Shown: piece after piece, positions 28,031-43,226 of the stretch
Layout: every line of letters starts with the position of its first letter
Position numbering within the stretch: position 1 is the first letter of the stretch
DNA from: a bacterium
GTDB lineage: Bacteria > Patescibacteriota > Patescibacteriia > JBAXGH01
Reading direction: 5' to 3'
Length of the DNA: 64,000 bases
Assembly (NCBI GenBank): GCA_037139515.1
Contig: JBAXGH010000003.1
Location: 12,800 to 76,799 of the forward strand
Notes under the pieces: model-generated
Seen by the model: only the letters and a program-made list of their open reading frames with translations
What the model was told of the DNA's origin: nothing
The model's database searches: none
Position numbers and translations under genes: made by a program

Positions 28031-29084
28031 TAATACCGCCACCCAGCACCTTTTCGCCTTCGTAGCAGACGACCGACTGTCCGACAGCTGGAGCCCACTC
28101 CGGCTCGTCAAAAACGATTCGATCTTTGAAGAGCGTGGCTGGCGCTAGCGGTTCGCGATAACGAATTCGCGCTTCGACCCGCATCCCATCATGAACGGCG
28201 CATAACCAGTGCTCATCAGCAATCCGAATCTCGCGTTTCAAGAGCGCGGGATCTTTTTTATCATCGGTAACCTTAATCGTATTCGTTGAGACATCACGGC
28301 CGCAAATATAATATTCGTGTTCAATTCCTAAATTCAAACCATGTCTTTGGCCAATCGTATAATATTGAACGCCATCATGTGTTCCGATAATTTTTCCGTT
28401 CATATCGATCACATTCCCCTGTTTTGGCTTGATACGAGTGGCTAAAAAATCATGCATTTTTACTTTTCCAACAAAACACAAACCCTGAGAATCTTTTTTC
28501 TCGGCGTTTGGTAGATCAGCTCGACGCGCAACTTCACGTAACTCAGGCTTGGTTAAATGACCAATCGGAAACAGGGTTTCGCGCAAAACTTCAGGCTTGA
28601 TGCGATATAGAAAATATGTCTGATCTTTATTCTGGTCGACAACTTTCATCAAATTCCCGTTTTTTGCCTGCGCATAGTGGCCCGTCGCAATAAAATCAGC
28701 ACCTAAACGCTTAGCCTCTTTATAAAAGGCATCAAACTTGATTTTTTCATTGCACATCACGTCCGGATTCGGAGTGTGGCCTCGGGAATACTCTCGGTCC
28801 ATGTATTCCACAACATCGCGCTGGTATTCGGCCTCGAAATCGAAAGTTAAGAACGGAATACCGAGCTTTGCTGCGACGCGCTCGGCGTCACGGCGTTCAC
28901 CGCGCCATTCGCACTCGCCGTTCGCATTTTTGGTTTCAGACCAGTTTTTCATGAAAACGCCGGTGACGTCATAACCTGCTTCGACCAATAAAAAAGCTGC
29001 AACGGAGCTATCAACTCCGCCGCTCATCGCCACAAAAACTTTTTGTTTATTTTCCGCCATCGATTTTTCGTGAATATTTTGCAT
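28020..29084 (-). CDS. mnmA: tRNA-specific 2-thiouridylase MnmA
   Basis: PP-loop VAMSGGVDSSVAA, catalytic Cys region (GLCFVGKV), and full-length MnmA similarity. The true start is probably the internal MAENKQK... (about 29060). Confidence 0.9.
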   Translation of the reverse strand: MQNIHEKSMAENKQKVFVAMSGGVDSSVAAFLLVEAGYDVTGVFMKNWSETKNANGECEWRGERRDAERVAAKLGIPFLTFDFEAEYQRDVVEYMDREYSRGHTPNPDVMCNEKIKFDAFYKEAKRLGADFIATGHYAQAKNGNLMKVVDQNKDQTYFLYRIKPEVLRETLFPIGHLTKPELREVARRADLPNAEKKDSQGLCFVGKVKMHDFLATRIKPKQGNVIDMNGKIIGTHDGVQYYTIGQRHGLNLGIEHEYYICGRDVSTNTIKVTDDKKDPALLKREIRIADEHWLCAVHDGMRVEARIRYREPLAPATLFKDRIVFDEPEWAPAVGQSVVCYEGEKVLGGGIITE

Positions 29085-30381
29085 TACAAGCAGCCTCTAT
29101 TGCTACGCGCTCACTCGCCCATTTTGGCTTATCGACACCAAGCGTAGAAGCTGAAAACGGATCGAAACGACGTCCTTTGATCGAAAGCTTAATATAGAAT
29201 TCCTGAGCCGGGAGATTAATCATGTCACGTAATTCAACCTGCGGCGAAAATTCTTTTTCAAGAAAAGCTGCATCTTCGGCGCTCACCTGGAAAGAAATCA
29301 AAGTCGCGACGTTTCCAAGCATCGAATGTTTGAGCGCCGGAGCGAGTTGCCCGAGATACTGATTTGAAGCCGTAATGCAGACACCATATCGACCAGCCTC
29401 GGAGAGAAGTGCAAGGAAAGAATCGGTTGCGACGTTCTGAAATTCATCAACGTAAAGATAATAATCCGCTCTCGTACCAGCCGCGTTCACACCACGGCGC
29501 AAAACTGCTCGCTTGAACATCGCGAGAAACAGCGAGCCAAAAATCGAGGCGTTGATATCGCCGAGCGCGCCTTTTGAAACCGTCACGAGCAAAATCTTGC
29601 CGTCACGAACTGCCGCTTCAATATCAATTTTGTTTTCGGCACCAGAAAATACGGCGTGCAAAGCCGGATGCGACAAAAACGATGTCAGCGTATTGATAAG
29701 CGCCGAAACCGCCGTACGATCTTCGGAAGTCGTCCAATTCACAAAATCATTCTGCCAAAAACGTTTGACCATGCCGTCCTGCACTACCTCCAATACCTTG
29801 GTTCGATATTCGGCGTTCGCGATAAAAGTCAAAAGATTCACAAAACTCGCTTCCGAATGGTCGAGGAGTGCGAGAAGCGCAAATCGAAGCAAATGCTCGG
29901 CGCGCGGATTCCACTGCGCTCCGAACAAACGAGAAAATACCTCTACAATGCCGGCGACCACGTGATGGCGCTCAGGAACAGGAATATTTGAAAGCGGATT
30001 CCAGGCGACAGGGTTTTTGTGATCAGAAGGATTCAAAACAATCACGTCGCCGATTCTTTCTTTGGGAATAAAATCAATCAAATCGTTAACCAGATCCCCG
30101 CTCGGATCGACAACGCAAATACCGTGACCATAATAAATATCGGAACGAATCAGATGTTCGAGCAATTTTGTCTTACCAACACCGGTTTTTCCGATGACAT
30201 ACATGTGGCGACGGCGATCCTCGCGCAAAACGCCAAAAACTTTGCGGTCATCACCAAGCCCGGCGCTTGAATTGGTCTCAGCGAAAAAACTGGCTTCGGC
30301 AGCCTCAGCGGCTTCCGGAGTTGGGATATTTTTCGGCGGCTCAACGTGACGAGCTATTTCCAGGTCATCAAACGATTCCAT
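29047..30381 (-). CDS. VirD4/TraG/TrwB-family (T4SS coupling-protein-like) P-loop ATPase without a transmembrane anchor
   Basis: Walker A VIGKTGVGKT and Walker B YLYVDEFQN. The T4CP-like SEAGRYGVCITASNQYLGQL block (R-x-Y-G ... Q-x-x-x-Q-L) is present, and the protein is paralogous to the upstream gene. Confidence 0.6.
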   Translation of the reverse strand: MESFDDLEIARHVEPPKNIPTPEAAEAAEASFFAETNSSAGLGDDRKVFGVLREDRRRHMYVIGKTGVGKTKLLEHLIRSDIYYGHGICVVDPSGDLVNDLIDFIPKERIGDVIVLNPSDHKNPVAWNPLSNIPVPERHHVVAGIVEVFSRLFGAQWNPRAEHLLRFALLALLDHSEASFVNLLTFIANAEYRTKVLEVVQDGMVKRFWQNDFVNWTTSEDRTAVSALINTLTSFLSHPALHAVFSGAENKIDIEAAVRDGKILLVTVSKGALGDINASIFGSLFLAMFKRAVLRRGVNAAGTRADYYLYVDEFQNVATDSFLALLSEAGRYGVCITASNQYLGQLAPALKHSMLGNVATLISFQVSAEDAAFLEKEFSPQVELRDMINLPAQEFYIKLSIKGRRFDPFSASTLGVDKPKWASERVAIEAACNAKYSRKIDGGK

Positions 30382-30415
30382 GAGACTTCAATTAGCCGAT
30401 TACGGCTTATTTATG

Positions 30416-32269
30416 TCACCACGGAAACACATTTGAGGACTTTTGTGAAGACTTGGCTGAAGTTTCAGGTTTTTTTGGTTCTGGAGCTGGGCTTTTTGGC
30501 GCAATTGCAGGGGTTTTTTCGTGAGGTACCGGTTTGTGGGCTACATGAGGCTTAGGAGCTGGAACCGGTTTTGCCGGAGCAGGCGCCTCGTCCTTTACGA
30601 TTCTAATCTTTCCACCAAACTCACCGTTTTGCCCTTTTGGGATAACTTTTAATGCCGGTTTTACATGAGAAACCGGTTTTGCAGGCAACGAAGATTTTAC
30701 CGGAGCTGCCACAGCTTTGCTCTCAACTTTCGCGGGCTTTGCGTCCTTCATTAGAGCCGACAATGAAACCGTTTCATTTGGCTTGGCTGGTTCCAGAGTC
30801 ACTTCGACACTTTCGATTCTTGGAGGTTTAACCGGAGTATGCGCAACGGGTGTTGGCTTCGTGAAGGCTGGAGCCGCATGCGCAACAGGAGTTGGCGGAT
30901 GTGGAATTGCAACAGGAGCTGCAGCAACAGGCTTAGCCGCCACAGGTCGCGACTCATCAACATAAGATTCGGACCACTGCACAATTTGCTTTTCAACCTC
31001 GGCACGATTCTTTGAATAAAGTCTACGACTTGTATTGATAATCAAATCCAAAAGTTCCGTACTCGGTTTGCCAAGCGGCGGAAGCGTATTTGCTGAAAAT
31101 GGCTTCGAAGTTACGCCGTCTATCAAAAGCTTCAGGTATATTTGATGATTTGGAATATTCACCAAATCTTCCGGCGTAAAGTCAGGCATGAATTCCGCTT
31201 CCATGAAAGTCGCATCATCAGTACCGACGCGGAAAGTCAGAATCGACCCGACATTGCCGAAGACCGCATCAGCAACTTCTTCTTCGAGCTGTTTGATGTA
31301 TTGATGTGCAACAATCAGATTTAAACGATACTTACGCGCCTCAGACAAGATATTTGCGAAAGATTCCGTGGCAAAGTTTTGGAACTCATCGACATACAGG
31401 TAAAAATCACGGCGATCAGCTTCCGGCATATCGACGCGTTCCATAGCCGCGAGCTGAATCTTCGTAATCAACATGCCGCCGAGAAGGCGTGAAGCATCTT
31501 CACCAATTCTGCCTTTGGAAAGGTTGATAACTACGATTTTTCCGGTATCCATGGCCTCGCGAATATCGAAAGTCGATTTCGTTTGCGCCACAATATTTCG
31601 GATAAGAGTCGACGACAAAAACTGTCCGACTTTATTCTGGATCGGAGCAATCGCCTCTTTTTGAAACTTCGGTTCCCAGCGTTCGAATTCATGAAGCCAA
31701 AATGATTTTACGACCGGATCCTTTACCGCGCTAATCACGATTCTTCGATAGTCTTTATCTGACAGCAAACGGTTGATACCGAGAAGGGTTGAATTCGGAT
31801 AATCCAAAAGCGCCAGAATACAGTTATTCATGATGTGTTCCATGCGGGCGCTCCAAACATCAGGCCAAATCTTCTTGAAAACGCCCATCAAACCGGCACC
31901 GATCAGGAATTTTTGTTCTTCTTTTTTCCATTCGAGCACATTGAACCCAACCGGATGCTCAATATCAGCCGGGTTCACGTAAATAACGTCATTCTTGCGC
32001 CATTCAGGCACGAAACCGATAATCTTTTCCGAGAAATCACCATGCGGATCGACGAGCGCCAAACCGTGACCGTTCTGAATATCCTGATACATCAGGTTTT
32101 CGAGCAGCGTAGTTTTTCCGGTGCCGCTTTTTCCGAGAACATACATGTGACGGCGACGATCTTCGGTCTTGATACCGAATCTGCGCAATTGATTACGAAA
32201 ATTAGTGGCCGCGAAAAGCGTTACTTCGTTCGGATGCACGTTCAGGTAATGATCTTTGAAATCCATCAT
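30416..32269 (-). CDS. VirD4/TraG/TrwB-family (T4CP-like) P-loop ATPase with a long Pro/Ala/Lys/Val-rich disordered C-terminal tail
   Basis: Walker A VLGKSGTGKT, Walker B FYLYVDEFQN, and SEARKYRLNLIVAHQYIKQL. The last ~170 aa are low-complexity PAxKPV repeats (coordinates about 30416-30950). Confidence 0.6.
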   Translation of the reverse strand: MMDFKDHYLNVHPNEVTLFAATNFRNQLRRFGIKTEDRRRHMYVLGKSGTGKTTLLENLMYQDIQNGHGLALVDPHGDFSEKIIGFVPEWRKNDVIYVNPADIEHPVGFNVLEWKKEEQKFLIGAGLMGVFKKIWPDVWSARMEHIMNNCILALLDYPNSTLLGINRLLSDKDYRRIVISAVKDPVVKSFWLHEFERWEPKFQKEAIAPIQNKVGQFLSSTLIRNIVAQTKSTFDIREAMDTGKIVVINLSKGRIGEDASRLLGGMLITKIQLAAMERVDMPEADRRDFYLYVDEFQNFATESFANILSEARKYRLNLIVAHQYIKQLEEEVADAVFGNVGSILTFRVGTDDATFMEAEFMPDFTPEDLVNIPNHQIYLKLLIDGVTSKPFSANTLPPLGKPSTELLDLIINTSRRLYSKNRAEVEKQIVQWSESYVDESRPVAAKPVAAAPVAIPHPPTPVAHAAPAFTKPTPVAHTPVKPPRIESVEVTLEPAKPNETVSLSALMKDAKPAKVESKAVAAPVKSSLPAKPVSHVKPALKVIPKGQNGEFGGKIRIVKDEAPAPAKPVPAPKPHVAHKPVPHEKTPAIAPKSPAPEPKKPETSAKSSQKSSNVFPW

Positions 32270-32275
32270 AGGTTT

Positions 32276-33835
32276 TTATACGAAAGGAAGATTTTCAGGG
32301 ACTTCTTGCGACGGTTCTTCGTGACCACCGTGGCCACCGCCATGTGATTCTTGTTTCGGTTCCGGAGATCCGTGCGCCGCCGCATCTTTAATCTGAGACG
32401 GGAAAAGCATATCTTCGCGGAACGGTACATTCGACGGCGGTTCTGAGCGCTTAGCCTCAATCTTGCGAAGCAAAGGCGACTTAATCAGCGCCGTCGGGAA
32501 ATGCCAAAGAGTCGCGAGTTCTTCCGTGCACATTATGTACGGCGCGGCGGCGGTTCCGATAGAACGTCCGCGGAAATTCGAGAACATATTCATGGTACGA
32601 ATCGGGGCCGGACGATAAAAACCAAACGTCAGATAATACGACCAGATTCCCTTGTGCCAAGAATAATCTGATTTTATCGCCGACGGCCAGTGACGCCCAA
32701 AACTGTTCAAGTTATGCGAAGCAAACCCAGCTAATGCCGCCGATAACTCGCTCAAACGCGCACCTCCCTTTCCGGCACCCTTGGGAGCAAGATAGGCCGC
32801 ACGCATCTTGGTCTTGAAGCCAACCTTAGATGCTTTCATCGAAAGGCCGTCGAGTGCTTCTTTTTCGAGTGGCGTAAAAGCCATTTTTACAGTTTTTTCG
32901 TCTTTTTTTACTTCTGATCCCTTCGCACCAAAAAATGTGTGAACTACAAGTTCCACCATATTATAGGCCTCGCTCACAAAAAGCTTGATGAGACCCGGAG
33001 CGTGTTTTTCTTCTTTAACAGGAATGCCAGCGATTTTTGCAATCAAGGCTTCAGAAGTCTTCTTCCATTCACTGTCAGCAGGTGTTATGGCGAGCTGAAA
33101 ACTCAATAGCTCACCCTGACCGAGTTTGTTCATGACTTCAATTACATGTGCGAGCGGATCCTTGAATTCACCAATCAGCTTATCCTCAAAAAAAGGCCAA
33201 GTTCTGATTGGATAATTATCTTTATTGGTCATGACAAACTCCGTTCCCGCCATGTCGTACTCCTCATTCGGCCATTTTCGCGGATAGGCATCAACATAGT
33301 CTTCGACCTGCTGGATTTCGGCAAGCGGATACTCGCTATAAACGGCAGCTTCCACCAAATCCCTAATTTTATCGCGACATCGAATATAGTAATGAATATG
33401 CCCCTCATGCGAGACAATTTCAAAAGACATTCGATTCGGTCCCCAGCCTTTAACATATTTCGGAATAAATTGAGGCTTTCCACCAGTACCCCAGACCATT
33501 GCGAAAATATTTTCAATAGCCTTTGGTGATTGTTCATTCAGGCGCGGAACTTCAACATTCAGCAAGATATAAGTTTGAGCGTGCTCCCACTTCTCTTCGA
33601 GCCATTCAACCCAAAGATGCTCAATCGTAACAATCGAAAATACCACTACGATTATCCAGCCGCCGTTCAAAAACAAAAACCAGCCGGCCGAAATTGGGTT
33701 CGTCGAATGAGCTGGCATCTCGTTTAAGACGCCCAATACGTGCTGGTACAGCGCATTTAAGAAATCTAGAATAAACATAGTTGACTCAAGACTTACGGCT
33801 AAAAATTGCGGTAAAACATTAAATTTATAACGCAT
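32276..33835 (-). CDS. Membrane-anchored hypothetical protein, first gene of the ATPase module
   Basis: N-terminal hydrophobic segment (GWFLFLNGGWIIVVVFSIVTI), a large soluble domain, and a Gly/His-rich C-terminus (HGGGHGGHEE). It ends 7 bp before the downstream ATPase gene. Confidence 0.45.
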   Translation of the reverse strand: MRYKFNVLPQFLAVSLESTMFILDFLNALYQHVLGVLNEMPAHSTNPISAGWFLFLNGGWIIVVVFSIVTIEHLWVEWLEEKWEHAQTYILLNVEVPRLNEQSPKAIENIFAMVWGTGGKPQFIPKYVKGWGPNRMSFEIVSHEGHIHYYIRCRDKIRDLVEAAVYSEYPLAEIQQVEDYVDAYPRKWPNEEYDMAGTEFVMTNKDNYPIRTWPFFEDKLIGEFKDPLAHVIEVMNKLGQGELLSFQLAITPADSEWKKTSEALIAKIAGIPVKEEKHAPGLIKLFVSEAYNMVELVVHTFFGAKGSEVKKDEKTVKMAFTPLEKEALDGLSMKASKVGFKTKMRAAYLAPKGAGKGGARLSELSAALAGFASHNLNSFGRHWPSAIKSDYSWHKGIWSYYLTFGFYRPAPIRTMNMFSNFRGRSIGTAAAPYIMCTEELATLWHFPTALIKSPLLRKIEAKRSEPPSNVPFREDMLFPSQIKDAAAHGSPEPKQESHGGGHGGHEEPSQEVPENLPFV

Positions 33836-34439: not shown

Positions 34440-35342
34440 CTAACGCTTTTTCTGCCAATCGACAATGAGAGGAGTTGCAAGGAAGATAGATGAATATGTA
34501 CCGGATGCGGCGCCGATGATAAGCGCGAGTGCGAACGACTTGGTTGAATCTCCGCCGAACAGGAAAATAGCAACGAGAGACAAGATGACAGTCATCGAAG
34601 TGTTGATGGAACGAACCGCCGTTTGGCGAATCGAAACGTCGACAATTTCGGCGACGGTACCGGAAGTCTTGGTCATGTTTTCGCGAACACGGTCGAATAC
34701 CACGATGGTATCATTAATCGAATAACCAAGAATCGTAAGGATTGCAGCCACGAATGCGCCGGTAACTTCAAGGTTAGTATAGTGGCCGAGAACCGCAAAG
34801 ACGCCGATTGGAATAATGGCATCATGAACGCCGGCTAAAACCACGAGCACACCATATTTCCAGGCTTCGATACGACCACTCACCTTTCGGAAAGCCCAGG
34901 CGATATACAGACAGATGAGGAGAAGCGTAAAGAAGACGGCCCAAAGTGCCTTGGAACGAAGTTCGGCACTAATCGAAGGTCCGACGGTTTCAAAACGGAC
35001 TTCATTCGAATCCGTCCACTGCTTTTTGATGGCAGCCGTAAGAGCGGCGTGCTTAGTCGAATCAAGTTCGGCCGTTCTAAGAATAACTCCTCTTTCGGTC
35101 GTAACGATGCCAGCATCAACGCCAACCGTCTTGGCAGCAGCAACAACTTCGCTCGAAATCGGGGAATTCGCCATTGAATACTCAACGAGCGAGCCGCCGG
35201 TAAATTCGATGCCGAGCTTAAGTCCCCAGGTCATGAAAGCGAAAATCGAAAGCACTACGGCGATTCCGGAAAGGGCGTACCAATATTTTCTGATCGTAAC
35301 TACGTTCATAGAAGTTATTTTTTCTTGGCGCCGTAGAGCCAT
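34440..35342 (-). CDS. secF: Protein-export membrane protein SecF
   Basis: Six-TM SecF with the characteristic GIEFTGG block near the N-terminal periplasmic loop; overlaps secD. Confidence 0.9.
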   Translation of the reverse strand: MALRRQEKITSMNVVTIRKYWYALSGIAVVLSIFAFMTWGLKLGIEFTGGSLVEYSMANSPISSEVVAAAKTVGVDAGIVTTERGVILRTAELDSTKHAALTAAIKKQWTDSNEVRFETVGPSISAELRSKALWAVFFTLLLICLYIAWAFRKVSGRIEAWKYGVLVVLAGVHDAIIPIGVFAVLGHYTNLEVTGAFVAAILTILGYSINDTIVVFDRVRENMTKTSGTVAEIVDVSIRQTAVRSINTSMTVILSLVAIFLFGGDSTKSFALALIIGAASGTYSSIFLATPLIVDWQKKR

Positions 35343-37345
35343 TCTTTTTTAGCGAATTCGAAGCCGGAAACGAAGCGGAGAATTGAACGGGTCACGGTAA
35401 TCGCCGAGAACATCGAAACGATAACACCGATTGCGAGCGTCAGAGCGAAACCCTTAATAACCGAGGAGGTGAAATAGAAGAGCACAAAAGCGGCAAAGAG
35501 AGTTGTGATGTTGCCGTCCCAAATACTCGACCAAGCACGGTTGAAGCCTTCGTCGATTGCGCTAAGCAACGATCGTCCGAGACGCAATTCCTCGCGCATA
35601 CGCTCGAAAATCAACACGTTTGCATCGACTGCCATACCTACGGTTACAACGAAACCAGCAATACCGGAAAGCGAAAGCGTAACCGGGAAAAGTTTATAGA
35701 TGGCGAGCACAACGCTCGTATAGAAGAGAAGCGAGATGACCGAAATCACACCCGGCAAGCGATAGAAAAGAATCATGAAGAGTGCGACGAGCAGGAACGC
35801 AACAGTCGCAGCCTTCATCGACTTTTCCAAATCGGCGGCACCGAGCGTCGGACCGATTGTCGATTGCGAAACCAGCTTAATCGGCACCGGCAAGGCACCG
35901 GCGTTCAAGCGACGTGCCAAAGTCTTCGCGGTTTCGATCGAGAAGTTGCCGGTAATTTGCGCTGATCCGCCATCGATTTCTTGCTGGACAACAGGGGCAC
36001 TGATTTCTTTTCCGTCCAGGAAAATCGCAATCTGTTTACCGACCCAAGCTTTCGTGAGTTCGGCGAATTTCTTTCCACCTTCAGCTGAGAACTTCAAAGA
36101 AACCTGAGGTTCGCCGGTACGAGAATCAAACTGAACCGTAGCGGATTCCAAATCCTTACCGGAAAGATTGGTATTTTCCCAAGGGTCGGACGCGTTAATA
36201 ATGCCTGCCGTTTTCGCGATTTTAATAACAGATAATTTATATTCAGGCAAAATCACGTTCGGGCGTGAACCGGACTTCAAAATCAGGTGATAACCAAAAT
36301 CGGTAAGAACCGGTTCTTTAGTGATGGTATTCACGTACATCGGGCGAACCGCGGTTGCGAACGAATCAACCATTGTAACCGGGAAGAACCAACCCAAGCT
36401 TCCACCGGAATTAACAGCGCCTGGCTCGGTTGAGTTTTCAGAAGCAAACTTGGCAAAATTTGCCGGTGTGAGCTGTGGAACCAAAGCTTTAATCTTCGCG
36501 TAAGCTTCTTCCTTGGTTGTTTCTTTATCGCAATTCGAGGCGCCCTTGAAACAAATCAAGATATGCGAAGCCTGAACCTCGCGCTCGGTGCGTCGGATAT
36601 CATCAACCTTAACAATCCAATACGCATCTTTAGTTTCGATGAGCTTCGGCATGAGCTCGCCCTTCCAAGCGTTCTGACTCGTGATTTCCTGAACAACTTC
36701 GGAATAGGCCGCGGTCATTTTATTTACGAATACTGTCTCACCACCCTTTTCTTTGGTGGCCGCGTCTTCGGAAACTTCTTTAGCAACCGTCGCAAAAACT
36801 TCACGCTTTACTTTTACGCGATCCAAAGCGGCTTCAGCTTTTTTGAGAGAAGCAGCGTTAGCTTCGTCAGTCGCCTTTTTATCAATCTGTGCATCCGGTG
36901 ACTTCGGTGTCTTGAATTCCAAAACCGGAGTTTCGCCAATTTGCTTAATAGCTGATTCAACATCGGAAACACCAGCGAGTTCTACATTAATACGCGAAAC
37001 GCCACCGGCTGAAGCCGTTTCAACAAGAGGTTCAGCGACGCCAAAAGCATTCACACGACGTTCGATAACGTCTCGGGTACCGAGAAGAGCTTCGGTTTGA
37101 TCCTTAGAAGGAATTTTTGAAAGGTCAGCTTCGTAAATCAAATTCGCGCCACCCTTCAAGTCTAAGCCGAGACGAAATGGCACGTCCCAATAATCACTGA
37201 TTCCGAGATGAGCCGAGCGAGCCGCGCCGGCCATAACATTCCAAGCTTTCGGATAATTCAAAAAACCTGTGAATAAAAACACCACTACAAGTGCACCGAG
37301 GGTCATGTATAACTTCCGGCGTGAGGACGTTTGCGGCTGGGCCAT
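35315..37345 (-). CDS. secD: Protein-export membrane protein SecD carrying an inserted parvulin-type (PpiC) peptidyl-prolyl isomerase domain
   Basis: SecD blocks are present (LGLDLKGGANLIYEADL, and the C-terminal SecDF TM bundle with AVDANVLIFERMREE). In the periplasmic region there is a PpiC/parvulin signature: ASHILICFKG ... GGSLGWFFPVTMVDSFATAV ... GYHLILK. Confidence 0.85.
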   Translation of the reverse strand: MAQPQTSSRRKLYMTLGALVVVFLFTGFLNYPKAWNVMAGAARSAHLGISDYWDVPFRLGLDLKGGANLIYEADLSKIPSKDQTEALLGTRDVIERRVNAFGVAEPLVETASAGGVSRINVELAGVSDVESAIKQIGETPVLEFKTPKSPDAQIDKKATDEANAASLKKAEAALDRVKVKREVFATVAKEVSEDAATKEKGGETVFVNKMTAAYSEVVQEITSQNAWKGELMPKLIETKDAYWIVKVDDIRRTEREVQASHILICFKGASNCDKETTKEEAYAKIKALVPQLTPANFAKFASENSTEPGAVNSGGSLGWFFPVTMVDSFATAVRPMYVNTITKEPVLTDFGYHLILKSGSRPNVILPEYKLSVIKIAKTAGIINASDPWENTNLSGKDLESATVQFDSRTGEPQVSLKFSAEGGKKFAELTKAWVGKQIAIFLDGKEISAPVVQQEIDGGSAQITGNFSIETAKTLARRLNAGALPVPIKLVSQSTIGPTLGAADLEKSMKAATVAFLLVALFMILFYRLPGVISVISLLFYTSVVLAIYKLFPVTLSLSGIAGFVVTVGMAVDANVLIFERMREELRLGRSLLSAIDEGFNRAWSSIWDGNITTLFAAFVLFYFTSSVIKGFALTLAIGVIVSMFSAITVTRSILRFVSGFEFAKKEWLYGAKKK

Positions 37346-40749: not shown

Positions 40750-41286
40750 TCAAGTTTTCAGTAATTCCGCGAAACGCTTCTTGGCTTTTTCCACTTTCGG
40801 CGTGATTACGATTTGGCAATACGGTTCATCCGAGTGATTCTCAAAATAATCTTTGTGATAATTCTCGGCCGGATAGAACTTATTCAACTTTTCAAGCGTC
40901 GTCACAATCGGTTTACCGCCCGGGTGTTCGCTTTCAAGTTTCGAGATATATTTTTCAGCCAGTTTTCGCTCAGTTTCGTCCGCGTAAAAGATAACCGAAC
41001 GATATTGCGTTCCGACATCATTTCCCTGACGATTCAAACTCGTCGGATCATGCGTCGCAAAAAATACATTCAACAAATCTTCGTATGAAATCACAGCCGG
41101 ATCATAAGTAAATTTGATAGCTTCAGCATGTCCCGTTTCTCCCGTTGAAACCTGCTCATAAGTCGGATCTATAACTGTCCCGCCCGTATAACCTGGTTCT
41201 ACCACCAAAACCCCACGGAGCATCTTGAAAACCGCCTCAGTGCACCAAAAACAGCCCCCGGCAAAAACCGCTTCTTTCTTTGCCAT
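40750..41286 (-). CDS. msrA: Peptide-methionine (S)-S-oxide reductase MsrA
   Basis: AVFAGGCFWCTEAVF active-site motif. Confidence 0.9.
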   Translation of the reverse strand: MAKKEAVFAGGCFWCTEAVFKMLRGVLVVEPGYTGGTVIDPTYEQVSTGETGHAEAIKFTYDPAVISYEDLLNVFFATHDPTSLNRQGNDVGTQYRSVIFYADETERKLAEKYISKLESEHPGGKPIVTTLEKLNKFYPAENYHKDYFENHSDEPYCQIVITPKVEKAKKRFAELLKT

Positions 41287-41288
41287 AA

Positions 41289-43226
41289 TTATTTGCCACT
41301 TTCAATCGCAAGAATCGCGAGCGCGCCTTCGGCTACAGCATCATTCATGCGCGAAATCTTCAGCGCATCGCCCACGACCTGCACCGATTTCACAACACCC
41401 TTCAATTCCTCCTGCAATCCGTCATTCGAACGCGAGCCGAGACACAGAACAATCGTGTTTGCCGGAATCGTGCGCGTGCCTTTCGAATCTTCGACTGTAA
41501 CGCTCTTCTCCCCAATAGCCGTGACTTTGGTTTCGAGATTTATCTTCACCCCAAGCTTCGTGAGTCGTCCGAGTAAAAGATTTCGATCATCCGGAGGTGC
41601 TTCCATCGCGATATTCTTAGTAAACTCGACAATCGCAACCTTATGCTTGCGAACCGCGAGATATTCGGCTGTCTGAGCGCCGGCACAGCCTCCACCAATC
41701 ACAACAACTGAACCCGTAGCCTTAGATTTTCCTTCAAGCAAATCACGCGCAGTCACCACATTCTCGCGGTCGATGCCGGGAATTCCCGGAAGCGACGGCG
41801 ATGATCCGATTGCGAGTACGACTGCATCAGGCTTCAATGCTTTAACATCACTTAAACCGAAAGTCTTATTCAACTTGAGCGTGATGTGAAGTTTTCCTAA
41901 ATCACGAATCAAAGCCTTACGAAATTCCACCCAACCGTTTCTATGAGGCGCGGCACCAGCCGCATACATTTGTCCACCGAGTTTCGATTTCGCCTCGAAG
42001 AGTGTGACCTTATGCCCGCGCATGGCCGCCGTTTTTGCCGCCTGCATACCGGCCGGGCCGCCGCCAACAACAATAATCTTTTTCGATTTACCCGGCTTCT
42101 TCGCGAATTCCAATTCGCGGCCGCAAGTCGGATTCACCGTGCACAAAACATCCTGACCAGCGAACAGACGTCCGATGCAAGCCTGATTACACGCGATGCA
42201 CGGCATAATTTTATCCAACTGTCCGGCGGCGACCTTGTTCGGCCATTCCGGATCCGCGAGAAGCGTGCGCCCAATAGCGACATAATCCGCTTTTTTAGCT
42301 TTCAAAATTTTCTCGGCGAGTTCCGGCGTGCGAATCTTATTGACCGTAATCACCGGAATCTTGACGTGCTTCTTTACCGCCGCCGCCAAATCAACCAGCA
42401 CACCGTCTTTTACGGCCATCGGCGAAATCATTCTCCCCTGCGCATACGAGGCATAGTTTCCGGACGAGATATGCAAACCATCAACGCCAAGATCTTCAAG
42501 TTTTTGCGCGATTTTCACAGTATCTTTAATCATGAGGCCGCCTTTTACATCCTCCGCACCCGACAAACGCACGATGACCGGAAAACAATCGCAAACCTCG
42601 TCACGCACCGCTTCATAAACTTCCTGAAGGAAACGAAAACGCTTTTCAGGCGTACCACCGTATGAATCTTTGCGATGATTGCTGAATGGTGACAGGAATT
42701 GGGTAATTAAATAGCCGTGAGCGCCGTGAATTTCAACAAAATCCATACCCGCTTCTTTAGCGCGACGGGCTCCGGCAGCATAAGCTTCGACCAAAGTCTG
42801 AATCTCTTTTGCGGTAAGGGCGACCGGCATCTCCCCGGAAGACGGATCCGGCACGGTCGAAGGCGCCACAATCGGCATGCCAGTAACAGCCTGATGAGTC
42901 TGACGACCGGCATGATAAAGCTGTACCCCGATTTTTGCGCCGTACTTGTGAGCGGCCTTTACCAAACGCTTCAAACCAGGAACCACGGCATCTTCATGAA
43001 TCCCAAGCTCATTCGGAAAACCCTGACCGCTTTTCATGACATAGCTCGCCTCCAAAATCATCATACCGACTCCGCCGCGCGCAATAGATTCGATATGCGC
43101 AACGTAGCGGTCGTTTGCGTGACCGTTCTTCTCGGCATAATCGCGAACCATCGGCGGCATCACCAAACGGTTCTTGAGTTGCATCTCACCCATCCGACCC
43201 GACTTGAACAAAGCAGAATATTTCAT
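41289..43226 (-). CDS. NADH:flavin oxidoreductase (Old Yellow Enzyme-like FMN domain) fused to an FAD/NAD(P)-binding oxidoreductase domain (2,4-dienoyl-CoA reductase / NADH oxidase-like)
   Basis: N-terminal OYE TIM-barrel (MPPMVRDYA..., HGAHGYLITQFLSP), a CIACNQACIG Fe-S cysteine cluster, and a C-terminal Rossmann GxGxxG (VVGGGPAGMQAA). Confidence 0.8.
   Translation of the reverse strand: MKYSALFKSGRMGEMQLKNRLVMPPMVRDYAEKNGHANDRYVAHIESIARGGVGMMILEASYVMKSGQGFPNELGIHEDAVVPGLKRLVKAAHKYGAKIGVQLYHAGRQTHQAVTGMPIVAPSTVPDPSSGEMPVALTAKEIQTLVEAYAAGARRAKEAGMDFVEIHGAHGYLITQFLSPFSNHRKDSYGGTPEKRFRFLQEVYEAVRDEVCDCFPVIVRLSGAEDVKGGLMIKDTVKIAQKLEDLGVDGLHISSGNYASYAQGRMISPMAVKDGVLVDLAAAVKKHVKIPVITVNKIRTPELAEKILKAKKADYVAIGRTLLADPEWPNKVAAGQLDKIMPCIACNQACIGRLFAGQDVLCTVNPTCGRELEFAKKPGKSKKIIVVGGGPAGMQAAKTAAMRGHKVTLFEAKSKLGGQMYAAGAAPHRNGWVEFRKALIRDLGKLHITLKLNKTFGLSDVKALKPDAVVLAIGSSPSLPGIPGIDRENVVTARDLLEGKSKATGSVVVIGGGCAGAQTAEYLAVRKHKVAIVEFTKNIAMEAPPDDRNLLLGRLTKLGVKINLETKVTAIGEKSVTVEDSKGTRTIPANTIVLCLGSRSNDGLQEELKGVVKSVQVVGDALKISRMNDAVAEGALAILAIESGK

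What the first reader, a model, noticed from the sequence alone, without database searches (positions are those of the whole stretch)
35315..37345. SecD carrying an inserted parvulin (PpiC) peptidyl-prolyl isomerase domain
Within the periplasmic head region of an otherwise canonical SecD there is a clear parvulin signature: ASHILICFKG…GGSLGWFFPVTMVDSFATAV…GYHLILK. Normally PrsA/SurA/PpiD-type parvulins are separate proteins that act on substrates emerging from SecYEG. A covalent SecD-PPIase fusion would couple translocation to folding. It may reflect genome streamlining in a lineage with few standalone periplasmic chaperones.
Basis: partly seen in the sequence, partly recalled or inferred. Interest (0 to 1): 0.6.

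Follow-up and report, generated by a model that had tools for sequence, protein, structure and literature searches.

The report
SecD with built-in tandem parvulin foldase
In this candidate-phyla-radiation bacterium the protein-export subunit SecD has two prolyl-isomerase (parvulin) modules built into its outward-facing head, one nested inside the other, so a folding helper is wired directly to the secretion channel; many related genomes share the arrangement, but I found no paper describing it.

Summary
ORF 35315-37345 (minus strand, 676 aa) is a bona fide SecD, followed by secF. About 244 residues (148-391) are inserted between the first strand of the P1 head and the rest of the head. Pfam finds Rotamase_3 at E 2e-28.

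It is not an assembly artefact. The 120 best database homologues, 31 GTDB species representatives and several CPR lineages carry it.

- The insert holds two parvulin modules.
- The canonical module (255-362) keeps both histidines, the acidic residue and the proline pocket almost invariantly.
- The other module (150-252) is circularly permuted. Its beta1 strand (365-378) lies after the canonical module, so one parvulin is nested in the other.

Evidence for the permutation: a motif match, a single-module variant with an intact 'GYHI…HILI' order, the top-ranked covariation pair (243-373 of 224,785) and the AlphaFold model.

Inferred function: a translocon-tethered foldase/holdase riding on the proton-driven P1 head. 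It is a covalent version of the SurA–SecDF contact proposed in E. coli and of the PrsA-like dome on the Mycoplasma translocon.

Databases call the protein plain "SecD". Verdict: new variant of a known kind, moderately high interest.

The parts
35315..37345 (-). secD, whole ORF (676 aa), identical to NCBI MEI7741112.1 'protein translocase subunit SecD [bacterium]'
37256..37330 (-). TM1 helix (res 6-30)
   Evidence: AlphaFold model helix 6-30; the position matches TM1 in SecD homologues
36905..37198 (-). N-terminal part of the P1 domain (res 50-147), ending in the invariant strand P-x-LEFK (140-145) just before the insert
   Evidence: Pfam SecD_1st 90-147; aligns to Tth SecDF 33-120; invariant columns
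36590..36898 (-). Parvulin module 1, body alpha1 to beta4 (res 150-252). It is circularly permuted and degenerate in this protein: W243 stands in place of the beta4 His, and 'GGETV' in place of 'GGDLG'
   Evidence: hhalign of mod1 against mod2: 99.2%, E 2e-19; residue statistics; sequence
36260..36583 (-). Parvulin module 2 (res 255-362), canonical beta-alpha3-beta-alpha-beta2 order with H261, S305, E307, L317, M325, F329, H353. It also carries an extra Cys pair, C265/C272 (codons 36551-36553 and 36530-36532)
   Evidence: Pfam Rotamase/Rotamase_3; conservation; Foldseek TM 0.83, rmsd 2.3 A to SurA P2, PrsA and Pin1; sequence
36212..36253 (-). Strand ILPEYKLSVIKIAK (res 365-378): the displaced beta1 of module 1, which returns after module 2 to pair with module 1's beta4 (241-251)
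   Evidence: motif parallel to mod2 beta1; variant B has 'A-x-HILI' at this place; covariation of 243-373 ranks 1st, 241-375 4th and 251-368 13th of 224,785 pairs; long strands 241-264 and 351-377 in both AlphaFold models
35855..36181 (-). Remainder of the P1 head and return to the base (res 389-497)
   Evidence: Pfam SecDF_P1_head 392-487, profile positions 19-114; aligns to Tth SecDF from residue 160
35366..35854 (-). TM2-TM6 (res 498-660), with D574 in 'GMAVDANVLIFER', which aligns to 'GAAVDGNVLSFER' of Tth SecDF
   Evidence: Pfam SecD_SecF_C; alignment; D574 invariant
34440..35342 (-). secF (300 aa); overlaps the end of secD by 28 nt, so the two probably form one operon
   Evidence: TIGR00966 262 bits against a cut-off of 160; Pfam; coordinates

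Best explanation
SHOWN: This is the SecD subunit of a SecDF proton-driven export motor from a Patescibacteria/CPR bacterium. Its extracytoplasmic P1 head carries a ~244-residue insert directly after the first head strand (LEFK). The insert is a nested pair of parvulin domains with the order [alpha1..beta4 of module 1]-[complete module 2]-[beta1 of module 1]. Module 1 is therefore circularly permuted. The permutation puts the chain's entry and exit points side by side, which suits insertion into a loop, and module 2 sits in the beta4-beta1 hairpin of module 1. Module 2 keeps the parvulin catalytic set (two His, Ser, an Asp/Glu, and the Leu/Met/Phe proline pocket). In this particular protein module 1 has lost both histidines (W243, V373). 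Related CPR lineages carry a single permuted module with both His intact (variant B), or the double form with a highly diverged module 1 (variant C).

INFERRED: As a secretory chain leaves SecYEG, the P1 head captures it, as proposed for SecDF in general. The attached module 2 catalyses prolyl cis/trans isomerisation, and module 1 acts as a non-catalytic binding or spacer surface, much like SurA P1. Because the insert rides on the head, it would travel with the proton-motive-force-driven swing of the head, moving the foldase from the channel exit to the release position.
For: Architecture. Not an artefact: the same layout occurs in all 120 best homologues, in 31 GTDB species representatives and in at least 25 full-span clusters at 50% identity. 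Two modules: hhalign 99.2%, E 2e-19. Permutation: motif parallel; variant B 'GYHI…loop…HILI'; 243-373 is the top covarying pair of 224,785, with 241-375 (4th) in the same antiparallel register and 251-368 (13th) nearby; H/H, N/R and aromatic/aliphatic pairings; AlphaFold pLDDT 89.9 (full protein) and 87.2 (insert), with continuous strands 241-264 and 351-377. Catalytic competence of module 2: H261 119/120, H353 120/120, S305 119/120, E/D307 119/120, M325 118/120, F329 120/120, and the same in 31 GTDB loci; fold match TM 0.83, rmsd 2.3 A to SurA P2, PrsA and Pin1. SecD itself looks functional: TIGR01129 is above cut-off, D574 is invariant and secF is adjacent. Functional precedent: E. coli holo-translocon binds SurA, and AlphaFold places SurA's two parvulin domains on the SecDF P1 head (PMC9987972); M. 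pneumoniae SecYEG-SecDF carries a dome of PrsA-like PpiC lipoproteins, with substrate density touching the one catalytically conserved PpiC domain (bioRxiv 10.1101/2025.04.25.650208).
Against: There is no biochemical evidence for PPIase activity or substrate binding. The window's own copy departs from the family consensus at several conserved module-2 positions (D316S, E330A, F334R, G339N, E347L), so its activity could be reduced. pTM of the full model is only 0.56 and I could not read the coordinates, so the placement of the insert relative to the head groove and to SecY is not established. Parvulin domains can be catalytically silent yet still useful (SurA P1, PpiD). Whether these genomes lack stand-alone PrsA-like proteins was not tested.
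Confidence: 0.75

Rival explanations
1. Assembly, frameshift or gene-calling artefact that merged a prsA-like gene with secD.
For: None found.
Against: SecD sequence lies on both sides of the insert within one open frame. The identical protein is in NCBI and ENA from separate records. The same architecture appears in 120 of 120 top hits from JGI, ENA, NCBI and Logan assemblies and in 31 GTDB species representatives. Junction residues are conserved (LEFK invariant, W389, T392, L394, G396).
Confidence: 0.01
2. The parvulin modules are catalytically silent and serve only as an enlarged substrate-holding or structural surface of the P1 head (PpiD-like or SurA-P1-like holdase), with no prolyl isomerisation.
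For: Module 1 in this protein has lost both His (W243, V373). The window's module 2 carries several non-consensus substitutions. From general knowledge of the family, PpiD's parvulin domain and SurA P1 are inactive yet functional, and PrsA/SurA chaperone activity does not strictly need PPIase activity.
Against: The complete catalytic set of module 2 is nearly invariant across 120 homologues and 31 GTDB species. Variant B keeps both His in 7 of 8 cases. That degree of conservation is hard to explain without selection on the active site.
Confidence: 0.18
3. The insert has a role unrelated to client folding, for example gating or regulating the SecDF proton cycle, anchoring to the cell wall or S-layer, or contact with a host cell in these episymbionts.
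For: CPR bacteria have unusual envelopes and lifestyles. secDF is syntenic with DUF8128 and VirD4-like ATPase genes, which hints at links to other surface machinery.
Against: No feature of the insert other than the parvulin fold was detected. Active-site conservation points to peptide substrates. The known partners of the SecDF P1 head are unfolded preproteins and parvulin chaperones.
Confidence: 0.05

Closest known systems
Canonical SecD/SecDF (T. thermophilus SecDF, PDB 3aqp, 5yhf; D. radiodurans 5xan)
   Same: TM1, P1 base and head, and TM2-6; the conserved TM4 Asp (D574); an adjacent SecF. Best sequence and fold matches.
   Different: About 244 residues holding two parvulin modules replace about 39 residues (Tth 121-159) just after the first head strand. 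No solved SecDF has a recognisable enzyme domain there.
SurA (E. coli, PDB 1m5y) and its proposed docking on the SecDF P1 head (PMC9987972)
   Same: Two tandem parvulin domains, one inactive and one active. It is the top structural match for the insert. AlphaFold places SurA's P1 and P2 on the SecDF P1 head, the same pairing seen here.
   Different: SurA is a soluble periplasmic protein with an N-terminal chaperone domain (SurA_N), which is absent here. Its parvulins are not permuted. The association with SecDF is non-covalent and transient.
PrsA of monoderm bacteria, and the PrsA-like Mdp dome on the Mycoplasma pneumoniae Sec translocon (bioRxiv 10.1101/2025.04.25.650208; 10.1101/2024.09.05.611430)
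   Same: A membrane-tethered parvulin foldase at the outer face of a single-membrane, genome-reduced bacterium, physically coupled to SecYEG-SecDF.
   Different: PrsA and the Mdps are separate lipoproteins with SurA-like N-terminal domains, and the coupling is by complex formation. Here the parvulin is part of the SecD polypeptide and lacks the SurA_N-type domain.
PpiD-YfgM at the SecYEG lateral gate (PDB 8zht; PMC9643414)
   Same: A membrane-anchored protein with a parvulin fold positioned at the translocon exit. It is a structural hit.
   Different: PpiD has its own TM anchor and a catalytically inactive parvulin, and it is not part of SecD.

Membership tests
SecD (TIGR01129 / Pfam SecD_1st + SecDF_P1_head + SecD_SecF_C) | Family model scores above the curated cut-off | tested here: met
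   TIGR01129 394.1 bits against a cut-off of 244.4; three Pfam SecD domains above their cut-offs
SecD (TIGR01129 / Pfam SecD_1st + SecDF_P1_head + SecD_SecF_C) | Topology: TM1, a large extracytoplasmic P1 domain, then five TM helices | tested here: met
   AlphaFold helices 6-30 and 503-660, with a beta/alpha domain between them; Foldseek top hits are SecDF structures
SecD (TIGR01129 / Pfam SecD_1st + SecDF_P1_head + SecD_SecF_C) | Conserved TM4 aspartate of the proton pathway (Tth D340 equivalent; its role is recalled from the SecDF literature) | tested here: met
   D574 in GMAVDANVLIFER aligns to GAAVDGNVLSFER; invariant in 120 homologues and in 30/30 GTDB loci
SecD (TIGR01129 / Pfam SecD_1st + SecDF_P1_head + SecD_SecF_C) | Partner SecF encoded alongside | tested here: met
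   secF at 34440-35342, TIGR00966 262 bits against 160; the same order occurs in L081
SecD (TIGR01129 / Pfam SecD_1st + SecDF_P1_head + SecD_SecF_C) | PMF-dependent stimulation of protein export | not testable with these tools
   Needs biochemistry or genetics
Parvulin PPIase (Pfam PF00639 Rotamase / PF13616 Rotamase_3) | Family model scores above the cut-off | tested here: met
   Rotamase_3 99.7 bits against 22.5; Rotamase 92.2 against 21.7
Parvulin PPIase (Pfam PF00639 Rotamase / PF13616 Rotamase_3) | beta-alpha3-beta-alpha-beta2 fold | tested here: met
   Module 2: DSSP order in the models; TM 0.83, rmsd 2.3 A to 4g2p, 2jzv and 4tns. Module 1 has the same elements, but beta1 is supplied from after module 2
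Parvulin PPIase (Pfam PF00639 Rotamase / PF13616 Rotamase_3) | Two active-site histidines, an acidic or Cys residue, and the Leu/Met/Phe proline pocket | tested here: met
   Module 2: H261, E307, L317, M325, F329 and H353 are present and near-invariant. Module 1 of this protein does NOT meet this (W243, V373), although 22 of 120 homologues keep H/H there
Parvulin PPIase (Pfam PF00639 Rotamase / PF13616 Rotamase_3) | Measured prolyl isomerase activity | not testable with these tools
   Needs an enzyme assay
PrsA / SurA / PpiD chaperones | N-terminal SurA_N / trigger-factor-like chaperone domain flanking the parvulin | tested here: not met
   No SurA_N-type Pfam hit in the protein at E<=1, whereas stand-alone relatives P0121 and P0123 carry PF13624 and PF09312. 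The protein works like these chaperones but is not a member
PrsA / SurA / PpiD chaperones | Independent polypeptide with its own signal peptide, lipobox or TM anchor | tested here: not met
   The parvulins are internal to SecD

The most novel reading that the evidence does not exclude
The parvulin pair is mechanically coupled to the SecDF proton cycle. Proton flux would swing the P1 head and with it open, close or reposition the foldase, giving an energy-driven bind-isomerise-release chaperone cycle outside the cytoplasm, where no ATP is available. On this reading, the circular permutation and nesting are the adaptation that transmits head motion rigidly through continuous beta-ribbons (241-264 and 351-377).
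Probability: 0.2. Interest if true: 0.85.

Novelty: new variant of a known kind. Interest (0 to 1): 0.62.

Why it matters
How proteins leaving SecYEG are handed to folding factors, and what SecDF's moving head actually does, are still open questions. Current models for E. coli (SurA docking on the P1 head) and Mycoplasma (a PrsA-like dome on the translocon) rest on low-resolution maps and predictions.

A natural, widespread covalent fusion of exactly these two partners is 'Rosetta-stone' evidence that the SecDF head and parvulin chaperones work together. It also offers a single-polypeptide system in which that coupling could be studied by structure and mutagenesis.

The fusion suggests how ultra-small CPR bacteria economise on envelope proteostasis. 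The permuted, nested parvulin is an instructive case of how a domain whose termini lie far apart can be adapted for insertion into a loop. I found no description of a circularly permuted parvulin in the searchable literature.

Tried and rejected
- Single-sequence scan of GTDB genomes with the insert found nothing. An alignment-based scan succeeded.
- Single-sequence homologue search with the insert alone returned only 3 stand-alone parvulin proteins, because of the word index, and told me little.
- Rfam found nothing in the window.
- The promoter/terminator scan around secDF was no better than shuffled sequence and was not used.
- I considered whether strand 365-378 might belong to the missing first 18 positions of the Pfam P1-head model rather than to module 1. 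I rejected this because of the HILI motif in variant B, the H/H covariation with 243 and the antiparallel covariation ladder.
- I considered the SecD strand LEFK (142-147) as module 1's beta1. I rejected it because it is invariant and aligns with the corresponding VLEFR strand of insert-free Tth and Deinococcus SecDF.
- Nine literature searches found no description of a SecD-parvulin fusion or a permuted parvulin. The library lacks most subscription-journal papers, so absence is not proof.
Full report
**1. Observation**

The window has one uninterrupted ORF at 35315-37345 on the minus strand (676 aa). A second ORF at 34440-35342 (300 aa) overlaps its end by 28 nt.

Pfam places these domains in order along the 676-aa protein:
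- SecD_1st, residues 90-147
- Rotamase_3, 244-355 (E 2e-28; 99.7 bits against a cut-off of 22.5)
- Rotamase, 261-355
- SecDF_P1_head, 392-487 (profile positions 19-114)
- SecD_SecF_C, 490-659

NCBIfam TIGR01129 (secD) scores 394 bits against a cut-off of 244, in two stretches that flank the parvulin. The downstream ORF is SecF (TIGR00966, 262 bits against 160).

Against T. thermophilus SecDF (3aqp), residues 57-149 align to 33-120 and residues 394-670 align to 160-437. About 244 residues therefore stand where Thermus has about 39, directly after the conserved strand '(V/I)LEF(K/R)'.

**2. Not an artefact, and which lineage**

- The identical protein is deposited as MEI7741112.1 'MAG: protein translocase subunit SecD [bacterium]'.
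- All 120 best homologues (47-71% identity; JGI, ENA, NCBI and Logan assemblies) carry the same set of SecD and Rotamase Pfam domains. Where they are named, they come from Uhrbacteria, Parcubacteria or the 'Patescibacteria group'.
- I scanned one genome per GTDB species with an alignment spanning flank, insert and head, then classified the hits with module-specific HMMs. Three forms appeared:
  - Variant A (31 loci): SecD-N, module 1, module 2, head, TM. Found in Uhr-, Magasanik-, Falkow- and Parcubacteria.
  - Variant B (8 loci): SecD-N, one module, head, TM. Found in Komeili- and Buchananbacteria and others; 553-618 aa.
  - Variant C (3 loci): module 2 preceded by a barely recognisable module 1. 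Found in Peri-/Peregrinibacteria and Gracilibacteria.
- An exhaustive profile search of 1.84 billion cluster representatives found at least 25 clusters (50% identity) among the best 150 that match flank, both modules and head in one stretch. Another group showed the variant-B pattern.
- Some carrier MAGs are labelled Gammaproteobacteria, Binatia or Lysobacteraceae. Their SecDs group with the CPR ones, so I regard the labels as doubtful. I did not check them.

**3. Anatomy of the insert**

The alignment of 120 homologues shows two parvulin-like modules.

*Module 2 (residues 255-362)* has the canonical order beta1-alpha1-alpha2-alpha3-beta2-alpha4-beta3-beta4 (DSSP of the models). It superimposes on SurA P2, S. 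aureus PrsA and Pin1 at TM 0.83 and about 2.3 A. Its active-site set is almost invariant among the 120 homologues:

| Residue | Conservation |
|---|---|
| H261 | 119/120 |
| S305 | 119/120 |
| E/D307 | 119/120 |
| L317 | 117/120 |
| M325 | 118/120 |
| F329 | 120/120 |
| H353 | 120/120 |

Most of the same residues hold in the 31 GTDB loci: H261, E/D307, F329 and H353 in 31/31, S305 in 30/31 and M325 in 24/31.

*Module 1 (150-252)* is homologous to module 2 (hhalign 99.2%, E 2e-19), but the match starts only at alpha1. It has no N-terminal beta1 strand.

**4. Circular permutation and nesting**

Four independent lines show that the missing beta1 of module 1 is the strand after module 2 (residues 365-378, ILPEYKLSVIKIAK).

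1. Its family profile, E-Y-x-[VL]-S-[R/H]-I-L-I, mirrors the beta1 of module 2, E-V-x-A-S-H-I-L-I, position by position.
2. Variant B SecDs contain a single parvulin written as alpha1 … 'FGYHII' (beta4), a short loop, then 'A-[SR]-HILI' (beta1), then the P1 head. The beta4 His is present in 8 of 8 and the beta1 His in 7 of 8. This is a plainly permuted parvulin with an intact catalytic set.
3. In an APC-corrected mutual-information analysis of the 120-sequence alignment, 243-373 is the strongest of 224,785 residue pairs. Pair 241-375 ranks 4th in the same antiparallel register (i + j = 616), and 251-368 ranks 13th.
   - Positions 243 and 373 correspond to the beta4 and beta1 histidines.
   - They change together: H/H 22 times, N/R 41 times, aromatic/aliphatic about 14 times.
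4. Both AlphaFold models (full protein pLDDT 89.9; insert alone 87.2) draw two unusually long continuous strands, 241-264 and 351-377. These would be the beta4 of module 1 running into the beta1 of module 2, and the beta4 of module 2 running into the returning strand.

The insert is therefore [alpha1..beta4]1-[beta1..beta4]2-[beta1]1. A complete parvulin sits in the beta4-beta1 hairpin of a permuted parvulin, which in turn sits in the SecD P1 head.

A structural rationale (inference): in a normal parvulin the N- and C-termini lie at opposite ends of the sheet. Starting the domain at alpha1 and ending it with beta1 brings the two ends together, as insertion into a loop requires.

Variant A differs from variant B by exactly one parvulin-length repeat. 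Either an internal tandem duplication (B to A) or a deletion (A to B) would explain this. I did not resolve the direction.

In the window's protein module 1 is catalytically dead (W243, V373, 'GGETV' for 'GGDLG'). In 22 of 120 homologues it keeps both His and D194, so those proteins may have two active sites.

**5. SecD itself looks functional**

- All SecD family models pass their cut-offs.
- D574 in 'GMAVDANVLIFER' aligns with the Thermus TM4 aspartate motif and is invariant.
- secF is adjacent.
- No second secD and no other parvulin lies in the 64-kb window (HMM search of all six frames).

**6. Mechanism**

*Shown:* a parvulin pair with a conserved active site is covalently embedded in the extracytoplasmic P1 head.

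*From established knowledge:* crystal structures show the SecDF P1 head adopting several orientations (F, I and super-F forms; PDB titles). The head is proposed to bind emerging preproteins and to move in response to proton flow (as summarised).

*Precedent:*
- E. coli holo-translocon binds SurA, and AlphaFold consistently docks SurA's P1 and P2 parvulin domains on the SecDF P1 head (PMC9987972).
- In genome-reduced M. pneumoniae, SecYEG-SecDF-SecA carries an extracellular dome of PrsA-like PpiC lipoproteins. Substrate density contacts the one catalytically conserved PpiC domain (bioRxiv 10.1101/2025.04.25.650208).

*Inference:* in these CPR bacteria the same partnership is hard-wired. The head captures the chain leaving SecYEG, module 2 isomerises prolyl bonds, module 1 gives extra binding surface or rigid spacing, and the head's proton-driven swing carries the client away from the channel.

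*Main rival:* the modules act only as a holdase. The strict conservation of the active site argues against this, but only an enzyme assay can rule it out.

**7. Comparison with known families**

- The protein is a member of SecD. All testable defining features are met.
- Module 2 is a member of the parvulin family.
- The protein is not a PrsA, SurA or PpiD. It lacks their SurA_N-type chaperone domain and is not a separate polypeptide. It probably works like them.
- No solved structure combines the two. Foldseek returns SecDF entries first, then SurA, PpiD-YfgM and PEB4.

**8. Novelty**

Public databases already hold hundreds of these sequences, and precomputed Pfam hits show the Rotamase domains. 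They are named simply 'SecD'.

Nine full-text searches found no paper describing a SecD-parvulin fusion, a CPR-specific SecD architecture or a circularly permuted parvulin. The library omits most subscription-journal papers, so the absence is not proof.

I rate it a new variant of a known kind. Both parts are known; the combination, the nesting and the permutation appear undescribed.

**9. Limits**

- No coordinates were available, so inter-domain geometry, the Cys-Cys distance and the orientation towards SecY are unknown. The full-model pTM of 0.56 also warns against trusting domain placement.
- The streamlining hypothesis (loss of stand-alone PrsA) is untested.

Noticed in passing
window 36530-36553 (codons for C272 and C265), minus strand: Two cysteines in the beta1-alpha1 loop of module 2 (H-I-L-I-C-x6-C) are invariant in the 120 closest homologues and present together in 23 of 31 GTDB variant-A loci. 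They are absent from variant C and from some Uhrbacteria ('HILVAYSGAERA', 'HLLIQWAGAQSA'). This may be an extracytoplasmic disulfide or a redox switch next to the active site. The distance between them could not be measured.
   Followed up: partly
window 29047-33835, minus strand; L081 13255-17154: Directly downstream of secDF lie a 519-aa protein with no Pfam hit (32276-33835) and two adjacent VirD4/TrwB-like coupling ATPases (30416-32269 and 29047-30381), followed by mnmA and alaS. The 519-aa protein is 37% identical (E 5e-93) to a DUF8128 protein that sits in the same place after secDF on a 1.5-Mb CPR contig, where a VirD4-like gene and mnmA also follow it. The linkage secDF-DUF8128-VirD4-like is thus conserved.
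   Followed up: partly
L012 2464-5553; L039 2272-5331: In a Magasanikbacteria locus and a Peribacteria locus, the parvulin-bearing SecD is fused in frame to SecF (1030 and 1020 aa, with a second TM-bundle hit). These are single-chain SecDF versions of the chimera.
   Followed up: no
L001, L003, L005, L006, L008, L015, L016, L022-L024, L026-L029, L034, L035: MAGs labelled 'uncultured Gammaproteobacteria', 'Candidatus Binatia' or 'Lysobacteraceae' carry CPR-type SecD with the parvulin insert. This probably reflects placeholder or wrong taxonomy labels, or contaminating contigs.
   Followed up: no
proteins P0141, P0142, P0146, P0147 and others: Many stand-alone proteins of 340-430 aa match the parvulin profile in three separate stretches (triple-parvulin proteins). 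They score as high as the fused SecDs. Their origin and role were not examined.
   Followed up: no
window 35315-35342: secD and secF overlap by 28 nt in different frames, which suggests translational coupling. Database entry P0001 starts SecD 13 codons downstream of the first ATG (663 against 676 aa), so the true start codon is uncertain.
   Followed up: no
window 40750-41286 and 41289-43226, minus strand: A peptide methionine sulfoxide reductase (msrA) lies next to a large OYE-type flavin / pyridine-nucleotide-disulfide oxidoreductase fusion (645 aa). This is another protein-repair and redox pair close to secDF.
   Followed up: no
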